From the NCBI RefSeq assembly GCF_009914755.1, contig NC_060934.1: 64,000 bases of DNA; one strand, given 5' to 3'. The translations under genes and the position numbers were made by a program. Positions 13,641 to 31,458 of the stretch are shown in pieces. Within the stretch, counting starts at the first letter, position 1; each line of letters starts with the position of its first letter. The stretch comes from the human T2T-CHM13v2.0 reference genome, Homo sapiens. The notes below the pieces were generated by a model that worked only from the letters and a program-made list of their open reading frames with translations, did no database searches and was not told where the DNA came from.

Positions 13641-14297
<657 letters not shown>

Positions 14298-15744
14298 CTA
14301 ATTCCTCAAATGAAAGATGAAAGGCGTGGGGTGGGATGTTGCCAGGTTCTCCCAGGCCTGGCCTCTGGCATTCCAAGGGCTCAGGAGGAAGAGAACGCCA
14401 TCCGTGCTCCACCTGAGCTGTATGTGAGGCAGGCCTCTGATGGCCGCTGGCCTGGCTGGGCCTGGCTCAGTCCTAGATCTGGGGAAGGGGCTGTGGCTCC
14501 TCAGAAATAAAAGTCCAAATAAACCACAGCAGGAAACACTTTCTGGGGAAAGGGGCCACCTTCTTACTCCCAAATACCCTCTCCCAGTCATAGCCCTTCT
14601 TCAAACCTCCACTCATACCCTCCACAGACACTGCTTGCTCTCCCTCCCTGCCTAATACCTCCTGGCACAAATGTAGCTCCTTTTACTAGTGTCTAACTTA
14701 AACCCTTCCTCTTTTGTTTTGAAAGAATCCTAAAACTCATCAGAGCACAAATCATGCACGATTCTACGCATACCCCAACTGCCTCAGTTTCTAGTTTCTG
14801 CCCCCACCACCCTGCAAGAGCTATTCTGTTCCCAAGTCCTACTGCTCTATTCAAGGACAAAACAAAAACCATGTGAAGAAAAATCAATCAGTTCATCTGT
14901 CCATCGATTGATTGATCTATCTCTCTCTCTATTCATCCATCCATCTATCCCTGAAAAGCAGGACATGGAGGAAAGGGAACCTCAGGGTTTCAGTCCAACC
15001 CCTGGCACAGGAATCCTGTCTATCATAACCTTGATGCTCTGCCCAAATTTCCCACGGAGGGCTCACTATCTCCTGATCCCTGGATACTCCCATTCCCGGC
15101 AGCCCTGTCAGTTAGGAAATGGACTCAGCATCTATTTCCCTGACTTCCGCATGGCAGTCCTTGTTCTGTCCCCTTGAGTCAGGCTGAATGACACTCTGCC
15201 TTCATTCCCATGACACCCTTCAGAAGAGGACCAGCCCATAGACCCGTAAGTCTTGGCAGAAGAATCCAGAAGCCCTTTCTCCTATCTGTATAGCTAGATA
15301 AAATGTTGTCGATTTTACTAAGAAGCACGTTTGATTTTACTAAGAAGCACATTTGAAACAGAATATAGAAAAATGGGATGAGGCCTCTGCAATAGTTATT
15401 CTAGCAACAGTGCCAGTGAAAATGTGTTTTAATATTTCTAAAAACAACATTTTAAACATTTTAGTATCAATTTTCTTTAAAAGCCATGTGACACTACTTC
15501 TCTTAATGGCTTAATATAAAAGTGTATAATTTATACCTATTAAATAAGACTGAAAATAGCAGTATTACCCAGGATGGAACCCTGAACTCTTACGTTATAG
15601 GTGACAACGTAAATTAACACAGGCTTCTCAGAAAGCAGTCTGGCAGCCTGTTTCAAGAGCCATAAAAAACACCCATACTCTTTGATCCAATAATCCCAGT
15701 CCTGGTATTTTATCCTAGGAAACTAGTTTTTTAAAAAGAGAAGG

Positions 15745-16032
15745 GGCCAGGCGTGGTGGCTCACACCTGTAATTCTGGCATTCTGGGAGGCCAAGGCAGG
15801 TGGATCACTTGAGCTCAGGAGTTCAAGACCAGCCTGGGCAGCATGGCAGAACCCCATCTCTAAAAAAAATACAAAAATTAGCTGGGCATGGTGGTATGCA
15901 CCTGTAGTCCCAGCTACTTGGGAGGCTGAGGTGGGAGGATGGCTTGAGCCCAGGAGGCGAAGGTTACAATGAACTGAGATCGTGCCACTGGCACTCCAGC
16001 CTGCGCAACAGAGTGAGACAGTCTCAAAAAAA
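15745..16032 (+). mobile_element. Alu (AluJ-like), inserted in an old L1M fragment
   Basis: Diverged Alu dimer with ggatggcttgagcccagg right arm. Confidence 0.92.
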
Positions 16033-16557
16033 AGGGCGGGAGTGGGAAAGAATGTTACATGCATTAGGATATTCATTCAAATGCTGTTTAGCAGTCAGCA
16101 GAAGGGGACTGGGTAAGTAAAGCATGATTTTACCCACTTAGTCATGTCCATGCAACTGTAATCATTTAAAACTCTGAAAACTAGTGTGCAGCTGGATAAA
16201 CTCCCTAAGGTATGATAAGGGAGAAAGCACAGTTAGAACTATACATGCAAACAGATCAGCACTGCAAGCAACATAGAAAAAGCTCAAAATAGTTGATTTG
16301 ATGGGTAGTAGGATCAGGGTGATTTAAAAATGTTTTTCCTTATTGCCAGTATTGCATTATCTGTATAATAAGCGACATTTAAAAAATGATATACTGTCAT
16401 TGGGATACTTCCTTCAGTAACAAAAATTAATGGAGGAGGCTACAGAGTTTACTGTGAAGAATTTGGGTAAGTCTCCACTGTTCTGTGCTTCTGGGGTTGC
16501 CCCACATGTTTCATGAAGAATTCTAACATCTGCCCATCCTCCTCCATGGGGGTATTA

Positions 16558-16929
<372 letters not shown>

Positions 16930-17011
16930 CAACAAATCATACTCCTGGAGTATCTTGGAGGAAATTTAGAGCAAATATATTAATAATTGTTTTTACCCCT
17001 AAAAGGGATCA

Positions 17012-17455
<444 letters not shown>

Positions 17456-17494
17456 CTACCTCACTGTGTCCTGTGGAACTGAGGGCAGAACAGC

Positions 17495-17663
17495 CATGCA
17501 CACTGTGGGTCTTTTAGCCATGTGTTTTGATACCACATGGGTGGGGGGTGGGGGCTGTGGAAAGCCAAGTAGGTTGCTCCTCTGGAAGATCGCACGTGGC
17601 ATGCAAGTGCAAGACTCATGCACGAGGACAGGAAGAAGACAGTGGCCACCCTCGGGACATGCA
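17495..17663 (-). promoter_or_regulatory. Cluster of four TGCATG RBFOX elements downstream of the cassette exon
   Basis: Plus-strand catgca at 17495, 17600, 17617 and 17658. Confidence 0.7.
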
Positions 17664-17729
17664 CACATCTTTGAGAGACAGGCAGCAGGCAAGAATCACT
17701 GGCATTCCAGCTCGGGGAGTAAGCAGTAC

Positions 17730-17813
17730 CCAAGGTGATCGTGGCATAAATGACTCCTTCGGGCACCTGCACCCATCTGGGGACTCCAGTGGGGAGAAAT
17801 CCGCCAGAGTGAC
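17730..17813 (-). CDS. AFAP1L2: Alternative cassette exon between exons 5 and 6 (GHSGGFLPTGVPRWVQVPEGVIYATITL), 84 nt, phase 1-1
   Basis: Long CU-rich tract then tatgcag|GT acceptor; G|gtactg donor; length divisible by 3, no stop, phases match exons 5 and 6; four downstream TGCATG motifs. Confidence 0.75.
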
Positions 17814-19293
17814 CTGCATAACATCCAGGAGCACAGACAGAGGGAAGAGAAGAGAGACAGAATGAAGAGAGGAGCACGCCCAAGTGCAGAGACACAAAGA
17901 GAGAGACCCAGATGTGGCAACTCGGCTGCCAGTCCACCAGAGGTTAGTGCTTGCCCATCAGAGGTGTAGGCTGTTGGGTGAGGCCACTGCTAAGCCAAGG
18001 ACATCATTTCCTAGATCCAGACCCCTTCACATCCAGAGATGACCATGTGACTACTTGTCACCAAGGGACTGTGGGCAGAAGTGATGTGCGTGACTTCCGG
18101 CTGGTGCTGTTAAGAAGCAGATAGGGGTTCTCTGCTCTCTCTTTGCAGAGGATTTTGCGTCCCTCGAGGGTGGCCGAGACAAACATGGAAGGAGCCCGGG
18201 CACCTAATCTACATGAGGATGAGTAATGCCCCACACTGAAATACCCGAGTGAGAAACAGGTTTGCATTGTGTTACTATAAACAGGAGCTGCTGGGTTATT
18301 TGTTACAGCTGCTAGCAGTACCCCAGGGTGAGACACCATCAGTGAAGAACCTGGTATCTCTGGCAAGCAGGGCAGACCCCGATATCCCTAGCACAGGCCA
18401 GCAGGGCACTTATTACACATGTGCTCAGAGAGAGGGACATGACCCAGGGGAGCGGTGTGGGGATAGGGCTGATAGAGCAGGTCAAGAATCCAAGCAACTG
18501 GCCTTTTGCAAGAAGTCAGCAAATCGCTATGGCCGCCAACTATAGCAAGGGGCTGGGGCCCCACGCCTATTCCTCCAGTCACAACCTGCATGTCACACTG
18601 TTTGACCAGGCAGGACCTGAGGTCAGGCCAGCTTGTAAGGCAGGTGAAGGCCTCCCTCTGTGCTGACCATGACTGCTTCTCCCCAAGTCATCCCCAGGCC
18701 TCTCCTTGGCAGGACAGGCAGGGCTATGTTCCCTCCCACCTCGCAGCTGGTTTTCCTCCATCTTGGAGCTTTCCTGACCCACTCCACACAGTGAGTTCAA
18801 GCTGTCCTTGGGATGACCCCTAGTCCCGGCTACGACCAATATGAACTCACAGTTGAGAGACAAAACCAAGAAGCGCTGGCCTTTCTGACCACTTGTTTGT
18901 GTCGAGATGGAGTGTCTGACCCACAAACCGGCCCCCTGGTGCGTCTGGCAGGCAGGCCCCTGCTGGCCCGGCCACACCTGGGAGCAGGGAAGTGCTCACT
19001 GCGGTGAGTCACTGTTTCCACCTTCAACGCGCATCCAGACAGCAGCACCGCACCCTCGCCTTTGGTCTGAAATCACAGCCCGACTGGTGAGCTGGCACCA
19101 CCTCGCATGCTCAGTGGGTCAATGCTAAGTGCTGGCTGCCCACAAAGCCAGCGTCTTAGAATAGACTCAGCCTAAACAGGCGCTCACTTCCCACAGAGTT
19201 CCCAGCAGGAGGTGGCAGGTAAGTGTGAAGGAAGGGCAGGGGAATCCCATCCCGCTCCCAGTCACCGGTCCCATCTCATCCCTGGTCCTGTTC

Positions 19294-21338: not shown

Positions 21339-21429
21339 CATTGAGGGATGTGTCATATGGCTCAGCCTCTTCATAGTAGCCCTCTGGAGACTCCGTCTTT
21401 GGGATGGCAAGCTGTTTCCGTTCTGGAAT
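21339..21429 (-). CDS. AFAP1L2: AFAP1L2 exon 5 (IPERKQLAIPKTESPEGYYEEAEPYDTSLN), 91 nt
   Basis: cacag|ATT acceptor, G|gtacat donor, phase 0-1; peptide visible in ORF 21259..21483. Confidence 0.95.
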
Positions 21430-22723: not shown

Positions 22724-24351
22724 TGAATCATGAAACTCCATGGGAATATGCATAATGAGTTCACAACAGAAGTGGCAGAGCTCGAAATGTATTCCCTCCC
22801 ACTCTTGATTTTGAGAAGTCCTTGTGCTGCGCCCTCCGCGTGAGAGGGAAGGCCTGGGCCTTCAAGGAGGCTCCACGTGAAAGCACAGGCAGGCTGTGAG
22901 GTGGGGGAGGTTGTAGGGGGAGATGATGGAAGCAGCAGCCAATGGAAGGACGCTGCAGTGCCCTGAGCTCAGGTGGACCCCTGTGCTTTGGGGGAGAGGG
23001 TAATGCTAGGAATCCAGAAACTCCTGCCATGAAAAATGGATTTGGGGGACCCAGGATGGAGGTAGCTCCCCTACTCCTGGCCCAGGAGACAGTGGGAGGA
23101 CAGGCAGCCTGTGCTTAGCCCCTGTGGGACAGTCCTCAGCCTGGGCTGCAAGAGTATCCCTTCCAGCTTCCCCAGGGTGAGGATACCAGGGTCCCCAGAG
23201 CCCAGTCCTGTGTGGTTTGGACTCTACAGTCTGTTTATATAGACCCTGGAGTTCATGTAACTTGATTTCAATCCGGGCTTCAGGACCTCATAGATTTAAC
23301 CTTGGGTATGTGACAGCCTCTCTGAGCCTTGCTTTCCTTCTTTATAAAATAATAATACTAGGGTTGTTTTGAAAATTCAATGAGACAAAACGTGATAGTG
23401 TTTCCACAGGGCCTGGCCCATATTAAATACAAGGAGGCCATTGTTATCACTGTCTGGGGCCCCTCCACAGTCCCAGGGTCTGCAGGTTGCGCAGTGAGGG
23501 CAGTTAATGTGACAGGCAGTTAATGTGTTGTCCTGAAAGCTGAGACGAAGAGGATCGACCCTGTCGGGGCATCGCAGAGGGTTGGCTGAGGCCAGGCCAC
23601 AGCCTGGGTCCAGCACCAGATCTGGTCCTGTACCAACAGAGCTGATATGAGGCACAGGGCAGGCTCAGAACAGCCTTCAGCCCTCCTCTGGCATGTGGCA
23701 CCCCCTACAAAGAAAGGAATCAAAGAATTTGGTCACTTCATAAGCAAACCCGACACTGTACTGGGCTGACAGACGCACTGCTGAAGGGAGCCAGGTTGCA
23801 CACCTCTGCCCAGGCTCCTGCCTGGCAGCCAGGCCCTAGCAGACAATGAGCGTGCCATTGGTAACTTCTAGTGTATGGTCCTCCCTCTTTGCCAGCCCCA
23901 GCCTGGTACAAGATCTTTGCTCTCTCAGCCTTTCCTGGTCCCCCTGGTCAGCCAGCAGCCTGAGAAAAGGCTGAGACAGTGACAGACTTGCCTGTGGTCC
24001 ACTAACAACAGGCTCCCTAGGGTCCACAGGGAAAGGGTCCTCTCGCCTCTGTGGCAGTAAGGTCTCCCCAGTGGGTCCCAGGGCTCATCAGCCTGATCTG
24101 GCTGGGCCTCCAGCTCCAGCCTCCAAGAAACTCCGTTCCCGTCAGGTGGGTCCCATCTGGAGAAAAGCTCTGGGCACCCGAGATCTGGCCCAAGGTCAGG
24201 ATTCTCTAGAGTCGAACAGGACAAAGGGAGGAGTGAACCCTTCTGCAGGAGCTCCCCATGGGTCATCATCACCACAGGGTCTGTCCCTGGGGGCCTCCTG
24301 TCCTGTCTAGGGTGGAGCCAGGCAGTGTTTTGTGAGTGTCTCCTAAGCTTC

Positions 24352-31383: not shown

Positions 31384-31458
31384 CTTTGCCTTGAGACTCT
31401 GCATTCTGTTGCTTGTTGATGGTCACTTTGTTCATATAAATGTACTCCTCATCAGAGC
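31384..31458 (-). CDS. AFAP1L2: AFAP1L2 exon 3 (SSDEEYIYMNKVTINKQQNAESQGK), 75 nt, contains the YIYM (YxxM) PI3K-p85 docking motif
   Basis: ctgcag|GC acceptor, G|gtatga donor, phase 1-1 continuous with exon 2; too short for the ORF track, read manually. Confidence 0.95.

What the first reader, a model, noticed from the sequence alone, without database searches (positions are those of the whole stretch)
17730..17813. Cassette exon that would add an ITIM-like / CagA-EPIYA-like motif (VIYATI) to XB130
Seen: an 84-nt phase 1-1 exon encoding GHSGGFLPTGVPRWVQVPEGVIYATITL between exons 5 and 6. Established: V-x-Y-x-x-I fits the ITIM consensus (S/I/V/L)xYxx(I/V/L) bound by SHP1/SHP2 SH2 domains, and IYATI is the core of the SHP2-binding H. 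pylori CagA EPIYA-C/D motifs; canonical XB130 couples tyrosine kinases to PI3K p85 via YxxM (exon 3). Inference: a splicing switch giving this adaptor a phosphatase-docking site in particular tissues. The exon itself may already be annotated in a longer isoform; the signalling interpretation is my hypothesis.
Basis: partly seen in the sequence, partly recalled or inferred. Interest (0 to 1): 0.8.

Follow-up and report, generated by a model that had tools for sequence, protein, structure and literature searches.

The report
Conserved XB130 cassette exon, YATI motif
This is a real, already annotated optional exon of the human signalling adaptor gene AFAP1L2 (XB130) whose tyrosine motif has stayed unchanged from frogs to humans, so it probably works as a regulated docking site, though which protein binds it is untested.

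Summary
Window 17813..17730 (minus strand) is an 84-nt, phase 1-1 exon with AG/GT borders. It inserts GHSGGFLPTGVPRWVQVPEGVIYATITL between Asn and Glu at the exon 5/6 junction of AFAP1L2. It is already annotated: proteins that their source names human "isoform 6" and "isoform 20" carry it.

New here:
- The cassette occurs in mammals, squamates, birds, turtles, alligator and a frog. Y-A-T-I is identical in 24 of 24 distinct cassettes, while the N-terminal half drifts.
- It is single-copy in the genome and lies in a low-confidence, probably disordered stretch of a model whose domains fold well.
- Four sense-strand UGCAUG (RBFOX-type) motifs lie within 230 nt downstream. This is the only such cluster in the 64-kb window. 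The upstream tract is very CU-rich and the donor has the lowest consensus match of 13 exons.
- The Y-A-T-I core also occurs in the PD-1 ITSM peptide printed in PMC11085718.

So a regulated tyrosine docking motif is well supported. SHP2/SHP1 binding is plausible but untested, and my literature searches found no XB130-SHP2 link or mention of the peptide. Moderate interest; a new member of a known kind.

The parts
17730..17813 (-). 84-nt phase 1-1 cassette exon of AFAP1L2 (between exon 21339-21429 and exon 13728-13933); encodes GHSGGFLPTGVPRWVQVPEGVIYATITL
   Evidence: sequence, frame; identical peptide in proteins named human isoform 6, isoform 20, X27, X29, X30; single copy in the genome
17731..17760 (-). 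Codons for E-G-V-I-Y-A-T-I-T-L, the constrained part of the cassette; the Tyr codon TAT is at 17748-17746
   Evidence: sequence; Y, A, T, I invariant in 24 of 24 distinct cassettes; Gly -3 in 23/23, Val -2 in 22/23, Ile -1 in 20/23, Thr +4 in 22/23, Leu or Met +5 in 23/23 of the 28-aa cassettes
17814..17913 (-). Acceptor AG (17815-17814) and a strongly CU-rich upstream tract (PTB-type motif density)
   Evidence: pyrimidine fraction 0.77 at -50..-4; 16 overlapping TCTT/TCTCT/CTCTCT hits in the upstream 100 nt, against 0-6 for the other 12 exons examined
17724..17732 (-). Weak donor TGG|GTACTG
   Evidence: 4 of 9 positions match CAG|GTAAGT, the lowest of the 13 exons scored (the others 5-7)
17495..17663 (-). 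Four sense-strand TGCATG (UGCAUG, RBFOX-type) motifs at 17658-17663, 17617-17622, 17600-17605 and 17495-17500, i.e. +67, +108, +125 and +230 nt from the donor
   Evidence: 0 such motifs within 300 nt downstream of the other 12 exons; the only place in the 64-kb window with >=4 in 250 nt; Poisson P about 5e-6 per 250-nt window at the window's own density
21339..21429 (-). Upstream constitutive exon (exon 5), ends in phase 1, encodes ...ESPEGYYEEAEPYDTSLN
13728..13933 (-). Downstream constitutive exon (exon 6), starts in phase 1, encodes [16 protein letters not shown]... and the start of PH domain 1

Best explanation
Window 17730-17813 is a genuine alternative coding exon of AFAP1L2/XB130 that is conserved across tetrapods. 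It adds 28 residues to the disordered linker between the N-terminal adaptor region (YxxM at Y54, YEEA at Y124) and PH domain 1. Only the C-terminal E-G-V-I-Y-A-T-I-T-(L/M) stretch is under strong constraint.

The most likely function is a switchable short linear motif. When the exon is included and the Tyr is phosphorylated, pY-A-T-I-T-(L/M) would dock SH2 domains that prefer a small or medium non-polar residue at +1 and an aliphatic residue at +3. SHP2 and SHP1 are the first candidates and SHIP2 is an alternative. A phosphatase would then be brought to the same scaffold that recruits PI3K p85.

Inclusion is probably controlled by RBFOX proteins binding the downstream UGCAUG cluster, and probably opposed by PTB-type proteins on the CU-rich acceptor region.

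Shown: the exon, its frame, its annotation, its conservation pattern, predicted disorder, motif matches and intronic motif architecture. Inferred: phosphorylation, the SH2 partner, the splicing regulators and the tissues.
For: Exon and frame.

Annotation.

Conservation:
- The cassette is present in named proteins of primates, carnivores, bats, rodents, aardvark and porpoise, of squamates, birds, turtles and alligator, and of the frog Ascaphus truei.
- There are 24 distinct cassettes and Y-A-T-I is identical in all 24. Flanking E(-4), G(-3), V(-2), I(-1), T(+4) and L/M(+5) are kept in 20-23 of the 23 28-aa cassettes. Positions 2-15 vary freely (column table).

Disorder: in the model built on 72 sequences the PH domains, the N-terminal helices and the coiled coil reach pLDDT about 87-97. 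Residues 127-191, which include the cassette, stay below 50 with no secondary structure. Pfam finds only PH domains, outside the cassette.

Motif:
- It fits the ITIM consensus, and Ala at pY+1 is typical of SHP1-recruiting ITIMs such as BTLA IVYASL (PMC8631942).
- The PD-1 ITSM peptide EQTEYATIVFP and the PZR ITIM GPVIYAQLDHS, as printed in PMC11085718, share the Y-A-T-I core and the V-I-Y-A pattern respectively.
- In CagA EPIYA-C/D, Ala +1 and Ile +3 fill the SHP2 N-SH2 pocket, and a hydrophobic +5 raises affinity (PMC9569640). The cassette keeps Leu or Met at +5.

Substrate status: XB130 is a known substrate of Src, RET/PTC, Lck, EGFR, Abl and ERBB2 (PMC4068053).

Regulation: four UGCAUG motifs within 230 nt downstream, unique in the window, plus a CU-rich acceptor region and the lowest-scoring donor of the 13 exons.
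Against: - I found no evidence that this Tyr is phosphorylated. The peptide strings gave 0 papers (supplements were not searched).
- XB130 with SHP2 gave 3 papers. I looked at 2 of them, and neither links the two proteins. The third I saw only in the search listing.
- Published GST-SH2 pull-downs list Src, GAP, p85alpha and PLCgamma as XB130 partners, not SHP2. The isoform used was presumably the 818-aa form without the cassette.
- The frog has Glu at -2, which breaks the ITIM pattern, so -2 may not be essential.
- The ITIM pattern is loose (2 of 23 Tyr fit).
- A single motif is a weak activator of tandem-SH2 phosphatases. Two sites would have to come from XB130 multimers (multimerisation: PMC4939424) or from a partner.
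- XB130 is a cytosolic adaptor, not a receptor tail.
- The RBFOX reading rests on motif counts in one genome. I could not test conservation of the intronic motifs or any CLIP or knock-down data, and AFAP1L2 with RBFOX in papers gave nothing on splicing (12 papers listed, one examined).
- More distant, unnamed AFAP1L2-like representatives (P0170, P0175) lack the cassette. Only one isoform per cluster is held, so this says little.
Confidence: 0.5

Rival explanations
1. The motif works without phosphorylation as another class of short linear motif. Y-A-T-I also fits the tyrosine-based YxxPhi pattern read by clathrin-adaptor mu subunits and the core aromatic-x-x-aliphatic pattern of LC3-interacting regions (both patterns recalled, not from a call). 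The exon would then tie XB130 to endocytic or autophagic machinery.
For: XB130 overexpression enhances endocytosis in HEK293 cells (title and abstract of PMC4939424). The motif lies in a disordered, acidic context, which suits such motifs.
Against: Constraint extends from -4 to +5, which is wider than a four-residue YxxPhi core. Ala +1 is invariant; it matters in the SH2 pockets described, and I know of no such requirement for YxxPhi or LIR motifs. No data tie this isoform to AP-2 or LC3.
Confidence: 0.13
2. It is a phosphotyrosine site, but the partner is not a phosphatase. Candidates are Csk, an Src/Abl-family SH2, or another adaptor, so the exon tunes kinase coupling rather than phosphatase recruitment.
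For: XB130 already binds several SH2 domains (Src, GAP, p85alpha, PLCgamma, Lck). SHIP2-SH2 binds CagA EPIYA-C/D phosphopeptides with KD about 3 uM, which shows that pY-A-x-I ligands are shared between SH2 classes.
Against: The closest printed matches to the core are SHP2/SHP1 docking sites (PD-1 ITSM, PZR and BTLA ITIMs). Nothing here discriminates between SH2 domains.
Confidence: 0.2
3. The hydrophobic V-I-Y-A-T-I-T-L stretch is a structural element, for example a beta-strand that packs on PH domain 1 or mediates self-association. It would change membrane or actin binding rather than act as a docking motif.
For: The sequence alternates hydrophobic and small or polar residues, as a strand does. 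The first, poor model drew a 4-residue strand at 159-162.
Against: That model was unreliable throughout (mean pLDDT 41.5, cassette about 25-28). In the better model the PH domains are confident, while the cassette has pLDDT 35-40, no secondary structure and no assigned contact. The cassette peptide gave no sequence hit in the PDB.
Confidence: 0.07
4. The exon is splicing noise or a neutral annotated variant without function.
For: It has a weak donor and no published function.
Against: The same 28-aa length and an invariant Y-A-T-I occur from frog to human. The frame is preserved. The exon is single-copy and not in a masked repeat (repeat list in the hub table). A dedicated intronic motif cluster lies downstream.
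Confidence: 0.03

Closest known systems
PD-1 ITSM (peptide EQTEYATIVFP as printed in PMC11085718), the main SHP2 docking site of PD-1 (PMC8631942 abstract)
   Same: Identical Y-A-T-I core, hydrophobic residue at +5, acidic residue upstream. The site is read by SHP2 SH2 domains after phosphorylation.
   Different: An ITSM needs Thr at -2; the cassette has Val (Glu in the frog). PD-1 is a transmembrane receptor tail and its motif is constitutive. Here the motif is in a cytosolic adaptor and delivered by an optional exon. Binding is untested.
Classical ITIMs with Ala at pY+1: PZR GPVIYAQLDHS, BTLA IVYASL
   Same: Hydrophobic -2, Ile/Val -1, Ala +1 and aliphatic +3; fits S/I/V/LxYxxI/V/L.
   Different: These are receptor tails, usually with two motifs in tandem. 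XB130 offers one motif per chain.
Helicobacter pylori CagA EPIYA-C/D segments (PMC9569640)
   Same: Ile -1, Tyr, Ala +1, Ile +3. These are the residues that fill the SHP2 N-SH2 pocket, and they are also bound by SHIP2-SH2.
   Different: There is no Glu-Pro at -3/-2 (the cassette has Gly-Val), so it is not an EPIYA motif. The resemblance probably reflects the bacterial protein mimicking host ITIM/ITSM-type ligands, not the reverse.
Tissue-regulated cassette exons in disordered regions that add or remove linear motifs, and RBFOX-activated exons with downstream UGCAUG (general knowledge, recalled; no paper read here)
   Same: Short, frame-preserving and conserved; lies in a disordered linker; weak splice site; UGCAUG cluster within 300 nt downstream; CU-rich acceptor region.
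   Different: No expression, CLIP or knock-down data were available, so regulation is inferred from sequence alone.
Tyr-rich optional segment at the same junction in the chromosome 5 paralogue (AFAP1L1 by recalled map position)
   Same: It sits at the same place in the protein, just before the DSD/[16 protein letters not shown] exon. It is present in some stored proteins and absent from close relatives, and it is tyrosine-rich.
   Different: The sequence is unrelated (about 33 aa, DGYYEDAD-type). tblastn with AFAP1L2 cassettes finds no counterpart in the equivalent introns of the chromosome 4 and 5 paralogues.

Membership tests
Annotated alternative coding exon of AFAP1L2 | AG/GT borders, frame kept between the flanking exons, present in deposited isoforms | tested here: met
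   the hub table lists 17730-17813 among exons of other transcripts
ITIM | Sequence S/I/V/L-x-Y-x-x-I/V/L | tested here: met
   V-I-Y-A-T-I; consensus from PMC8631942. Val at -2 in 22 of 23 distinct 28-aa cassettes, Glu in the frog
ITIM | Lies in the cytoplasmic tail of a transmembrane inhibitory receptor | tested here: not met
   XB130 is described as a cytosolic adaptor with PH domains and a coiled coil (PMC4068053). Pfam finds only PH. The model shows no membrane-spanning segment, only the N-terminal helices, two PH domains and a coiled coil
ITIM | Tyr phosphorylated on stimulation and recruits SHP1, SHP2 or SHIP | not testable with these tools
   No phosphoproteomic or binding data were reachable; paper searches were negative
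ITSM | T-x-Y-x-x-V/I | tested here: not met
   The -2 residue is Val, or Glu in the frog, and never Thr; the core Y-A-T-I equals that of the PD-1 ITSM
EPIYA motif (CagA, Pragmin type) | Glu-Pro-Ile-Tyr-Ala | tested here: not met
   The cassette reads E-G-V-I-Y-A; Pro is at -5 in mammals and absent in sauropsids and the frog
RBFOX-activated cassette exon | (U)GCAUG in the first ~300 nt of the downstream intron | tested here: met
   Four motifs at +67, +108, +125 and +230; none downstream of the other 12 exons; the only cluster of this density in the window
RBFOX-activated cassette exon | Motifs conserved in other species; RBFOX CLIP signal; inclusion falls on RBFOX loss | not testable with these tools
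   No other vertebrate genome, CLIP or RNA-seq data are held; the paper search found nothing on this
Short linear motif in an intrinsically disordered region | A locally conserved island in a variable, unstructured stretch | tested here: met
   Identity to human averages about 0.97 over E154-T162 and about 0.54 over positions 137-153 (my arithmetic on the table). pLDDT is 35-40 against about 87-97 for the folded domains

The most novel reading that the evidence does not exclude
A splicing switch at least as old as tetrapods, driven by RBFOX, equips the PI3K-coupling adaptor XB130 with a pY-A-T-I docking site of the type found in the PD-1 ITSM and CagA. In the tissues that include the exon, the scaffold that activates PI3K would then also recruit SHP2, SHP1 or the lipid phosphatase SHIP2, changing the sign or duration of the signal. 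This would also make XB130 an endogenous cytosolic bearer of the host motif class that CagA imitates.
Probability: 0.2. Interest if true: 0.65.

Novelty: new member of a known kind. Interest (0 to 1): 0.45.

Why it matters
XB130/AFAP1L2 is studied as a tyrosine-kinase substrate that feeds PI3K-AKT signalling in thyroid, lung, gut and oligodendrocyte-lineage cells. Nearly all of that work uses the 818-aa form without this exon. An isoform with an invariant, PD-1-like tyrosine motif could behave differently, for example by recruiting a phosphatase. That could explain tissue-specific or contradictory effects. The conservation pattern and the intronic UGCAUG cluster give two cheap, direct tests: a Y-to-F comparison with a phosphopeptide pull-down, and a minigene with RBFOX depletion. 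If the motif proves inert, the exon remains an ordinary annotated variant.

Tried and rejected
- the 27-aa exon peptide is below the 40-aa minimum of the homologue search. I queried with the neighbouring exon 6 instead and looked for the cassette among the hits.
- badly posed paper searches. min_terms let XB130/AFAP1L2 drop out, so they say nothing.
- papers holding AFAP1L2/XB130 together with splicing, isoform, exon or RBFOX terms. In those I opened, the passages around the search terms did not mention this exon. Many of the papers listed I saw only as a listing. The 2014 review mentions only "seven putative splicing variants".
- the peptide strings gave 0 papers. Supplements, where phosphoproteomic tables live, are not covered by the search.
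- searching with the frog cassette region returned only the frog protein itself, so I have a single amphibian example.
- Fish: unnamed distant representatives lack the cassette.
- tblastn of five cassettes against the equivalent introns of the chromosome 4 and 5 paralogues. No cassette counterpart appeared; the only low-E hits (0.017 and 0.033) fell on the flanking SSSYES exon. The positive control in the window scored E = 4e-18.
- the first AlphaFold2 model (24 sequences) was too poor to use, with mean pLDDT 41.5.
- no PDB sequence match for the cassette and no Rfam family in 16500-19000.
- all frames are open around the exon, so frame openness is no evidence.
- Complex prediction was not used. 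It accepts no human reference and no phosphotyrosine.

Full report
**1. What is in the sequence**

On the minus strand the window reads ...ttatgcag|GTCACTCTGG...GATCACCTTGG|gtactg. The exon is 17813..17730, 84 nt, with AG at 17815-17814 and GT at 17729-17728.

Joining the 11 annotated in-window exons gives one open frame. The upstream exon 21339-21429 ends in phase 1 (...TCA AAT G) and the downstream exon 13728-13933 starts in phase 1 (AG GAC...). The 84-nt exon therefore keeps the frame. It inserts GHSGGFLPTGVPRWVQVPEGVIYATITL between Asn and Glu (...DTSLN | cassette | EDGEAV...).

The Y54 YxxM motif (EEYIYM) lies in exon 31384-31458. That is the third exon if one coding exon lies upstream of the window (MERYKA in P0010).

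**2. It is already annotated**

I searched with the neighbouring exon 6 against the large protein collection. The hits included vertebrate AFAP1L2 proteins with names given by their sources. Proteins named human "isoform 6" (P0010, 759 aa), "isoform 20" (P0011, 763 aa), X27, X29 and X30 carry exactly this cassette. Isoforms 15, 16 and 3 and others lack it. The hub table also lists 17730-17813 as an exon of other transcripts. The exon itself is therefore not new.

**3. Conservation**

The cassette appears at the same junction in named proteins of many groups:
- Mammals: apes and Old World monkeys, cats, otter, bats, porcupine, mole rat, aardvark and porpoise.
- Reptiles and birds: Varanus, Anolis, Zootoca, Paroedura, many birds, three turtles and alligator.
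- Amphibians: one frog, Ascaphus truei. The protein was found and named.

Of 312 stored proteins, 154 had both flanks recognisable. Of these, 78 carry an insert (77 of 28 aa, one bird model of 26 aa) and 76 do not. This set was enriched by a cassette-directed search, so the ratio is not an inclusion rate.

There are 24 distinct cassettes, and Y-A-T-I is identical in all 24. Among the 23 distinct 28-aa cassettes:

| Position | Residue | Count |
|---|---|---|
| -4 | Glu | 22 of 23 |
| -3 | Gly | 23 of 23 |
| -2 | Val | 22 of 23 (Glu in the frog) |
| -1 | Ile | 20 of 23 (Leu, Val, Thr once each) |
| +4 | Thr | 22 of 23 |
| +5 | Leu / Met | 13 / 10 of 23 |

Positions 2-15 differ freely between mammals and sauropsids (HSGGFLPTGVPRWV against LFGRLAAAGPRPGL). 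In a 24-species alignment, G155, Y158, A159, T160 and I161 are invariant. This is the signature of a short linear motif under purifying selection inside a drifting linker.

More distant, unnamed AFAP1L2-like representatives lack the cassette. That library keeps one protein per cluster, so absence in fish is not shown.

**4. Origin and paralogues**

The exon with its flanks is single-copy in the genome. It is not in a masked repeat (hub table).

tblastn with five cassettes against the equivalent introns of the chromosome 4 and chromosome 5 paralogues found no counterpart. The control in the window scored E = 4e-18.

The chromosome 5 paralogue does carry an unrelated, tyrosine-rich segment of about 33 aa at the same junction. 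It is encoded at L004:4022-4120, and some close relatives lack it.

**5. Structural context**

Pfam finds only PH domains, outside the cassette.

The first AlphaFold2 model (24 sequences) was unusable, with mean pLDDT 41.5. A second model on 72 sequences including paralogues gave confident domains:
- N-terminal helices: blocks 77-94 over residues 1-40.
- PH1: blocks 89-96.
- PH2 and its following helices: blocks 87-97.
- Coiled coil: about 94-97.

Residues 127-191 stay below 50 with no secondary structure, and the cassette blocks score 35-40. This argues against a folded or PH-docking role and fits a disordered docking motif. No PDB sequence match and no Rfam family were found nearby.

**6. 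The motif against known ligands**

- V-I-Y-A-T-I fits the ITIM consensus S/I/V/LxYxxI/V/L. Ala at pY+1 is conserved in several SHP1-recruiting ITIMs, for example BTLA IVYASL (PMC8631942, passages).
- PMC11085718 (passages) prints the PZR ITIMs GPVIYAQLDHS and ESVVYADIRKN and the PD-1 ITSM EQTEYATIVFP. The PD-1 ITSM core Y-A-T-I is identical to the cassette core. The PD-1 ITSM is described as that receptor's main SHP2 site (PMC8631942 abstract).
- For CagA EPIYA-C/D, PMC9569640 (passages) states that Ala +1 and Ile +3 occupy the SHP2 N-SH2 hydrophobic pocket. It also states that Phe at +5 (EPIYA-D) binds better than Asp (EPIYA-C), and that SHIP2-SH2 binds both with KD about 3 uM. The cassette keeps a hydrophobic +5.

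Three caveats apply:
- The cassette is not an EPIYA motif (Gly-Val instead of Glu-Pro before Ile-Tyr) and not an ITSM (no Thr at -2).
- XB130 is not a receptor tail.
- The ITIM pattern is loose. Two of the 23 tyrosines of isoform 6 fit it, Y158 in the cassette and Y387.

That Ile -1 and Ala +1 suit Src- and Abl-family kinases is my recollection, not a call. XB130 is reported as a substrate of Src, RET/PTC, Lck, EGFR, Abl and ERBB2 (PMC4068053).

**7. Splicing architecture**

The donor TGG|GTACTG matches 4 of 9 consensus positions, the lowest of the 13 exons scored. The 100 nt upstream of the exon hold 16 overlapping CU-rich PTB-type hits, against 0-6 for the other exons.

Four sense-strand TGCATG motifs lie at +67, +108, +125 and +230 from the donor. 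None of the other 12 exons has one within 300 nt downstream. This is the only place in the 64-kb window with four in 250 nt. At the window's own density of 28 sense-strand sites, the Poisson P is about 5e-6 per window. A looser cluster (3 in 200 nt) lies at 16050-16262.

Downstream UGCAUG promoting inclusion through RBFOX proteins is established knowledge (recalled). I infer RBFOX-dependent, tissue-restricted inclusion at roughly 0.6. I could test neither conservation of these motifs nor expression.

**8. Literature**

- The peptide strings gave 0 papers.
- XB130 with SHP2 gave 3 papers. I opened two, and neither links the proteins. The third I saw only in the listing.
- AFAP1L2 with RBFOX gave 13 papers (12 listed). 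I examined one of them, and it says nothing on splicing of this gene.
- AFAP1L2 with splicing and exon gave 40 papers (38 listed). The five I examined do not mention this exon (PMC4905481 and PMC13238895 were already looked at).
- The 2014 review gives 818 aa, 19 exons and "seven putative splicing variants". It lists SH2-binding sites at residues 54-57, 124-127, 148-151 and 457-460, and SH2 partners Src, GAP, p85alpha and PLCgamma.
- Zebrafish Afap1l2 pY55/pY57 appears in a Shp2-mutant phosphoproteome, but that is the YxxM region.
- AFAP1L2 is a PTPRZ1 substrate in oligodendrocyte-lineage cells.

Supplementary tables were not searched and could hold phosphosite or PSI data.

**9. Verdict**

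What is added here:
- It is a tetrapod-wide cassette whose only constrained part is E-G-V-I-Y-A-T-I-T-(L/M).
- That part is predicted disordered and matches bona fide SHP2/SHP1 docking cores.
- The exon sits in an intron context typical of RBFOX/PTB-regulated exons.

A switchable phosphotyrosine docking site is the best explanation (0.5). SHP2/SHP1 specifically has a probability of about 0.2-0.25. The rivals are another SH2 partner, a phosphorylation-independent motif, and a structural role that the second model disfavours. Interest is moderate: a well-founded, cheaply testable hypothesis on an annotated exon.

Noticed in passing
L004:4022-4120 (G000:C5, intron between the matches at C5:149837173-149837349 and C5:149842211-149842450): The chromosome 5 paralogue encodes a tyrosine-rich segment of about 33 aa (DGYYEDAD-type) at the same protein junction as the AFAP1L2 cassette. 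Stored proteins P0178, P0180, P0188 and P0211 contain it and the close relative P0181 lacks it. This junction may therefore host optional Tyr-bearing exons in more than one family member.
   Followed up: partly
P0152-P0162, P0165, P0166 (birds, turtle); junction of cassette and exon 6: In many bird and turtle models the Glu/Asp that follows the cassette is present in one isoform and missing in another (ITM-EDGEAV against ITM-DGEAV). This looks like a 3-nt alternative acceptor at exon 6.
   Followed up: no
window 24047-24191 (- strand): The other alternative exon in this intron region has a GC donor (GAG|GCGAGA) in the simple scan. The protein named human isoform 3 (P0024, 871 aa) has a different sequence in the stretch before exon 5.
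   Followed up: no
window 16050-16262 (- strand): A second, looser group of three sense-strand TGCATG motifs lies about 1.5 kb further down the same intron, next to a masked repeat (15719-16038).
   Followed up: no
P0002, P0003, P0039-P0043, P0051, P0054, P0056 and similar short proteins from unnamed sources: Short predicted proteins read from intron sequence straight into exon 6 (...[11 protein letters not shown]...). They look like ORF calls on unspliced mammalian DNA in mixed collections rather than real isoforms.
   Followed up: no
window 17461-17943 (- strand): The cassette's frame stays open for 160 codons through both flanking intron stretches, and all six frames are fairly open here. 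ORF length is therefore uninformative in this region.
   Followed up: yes
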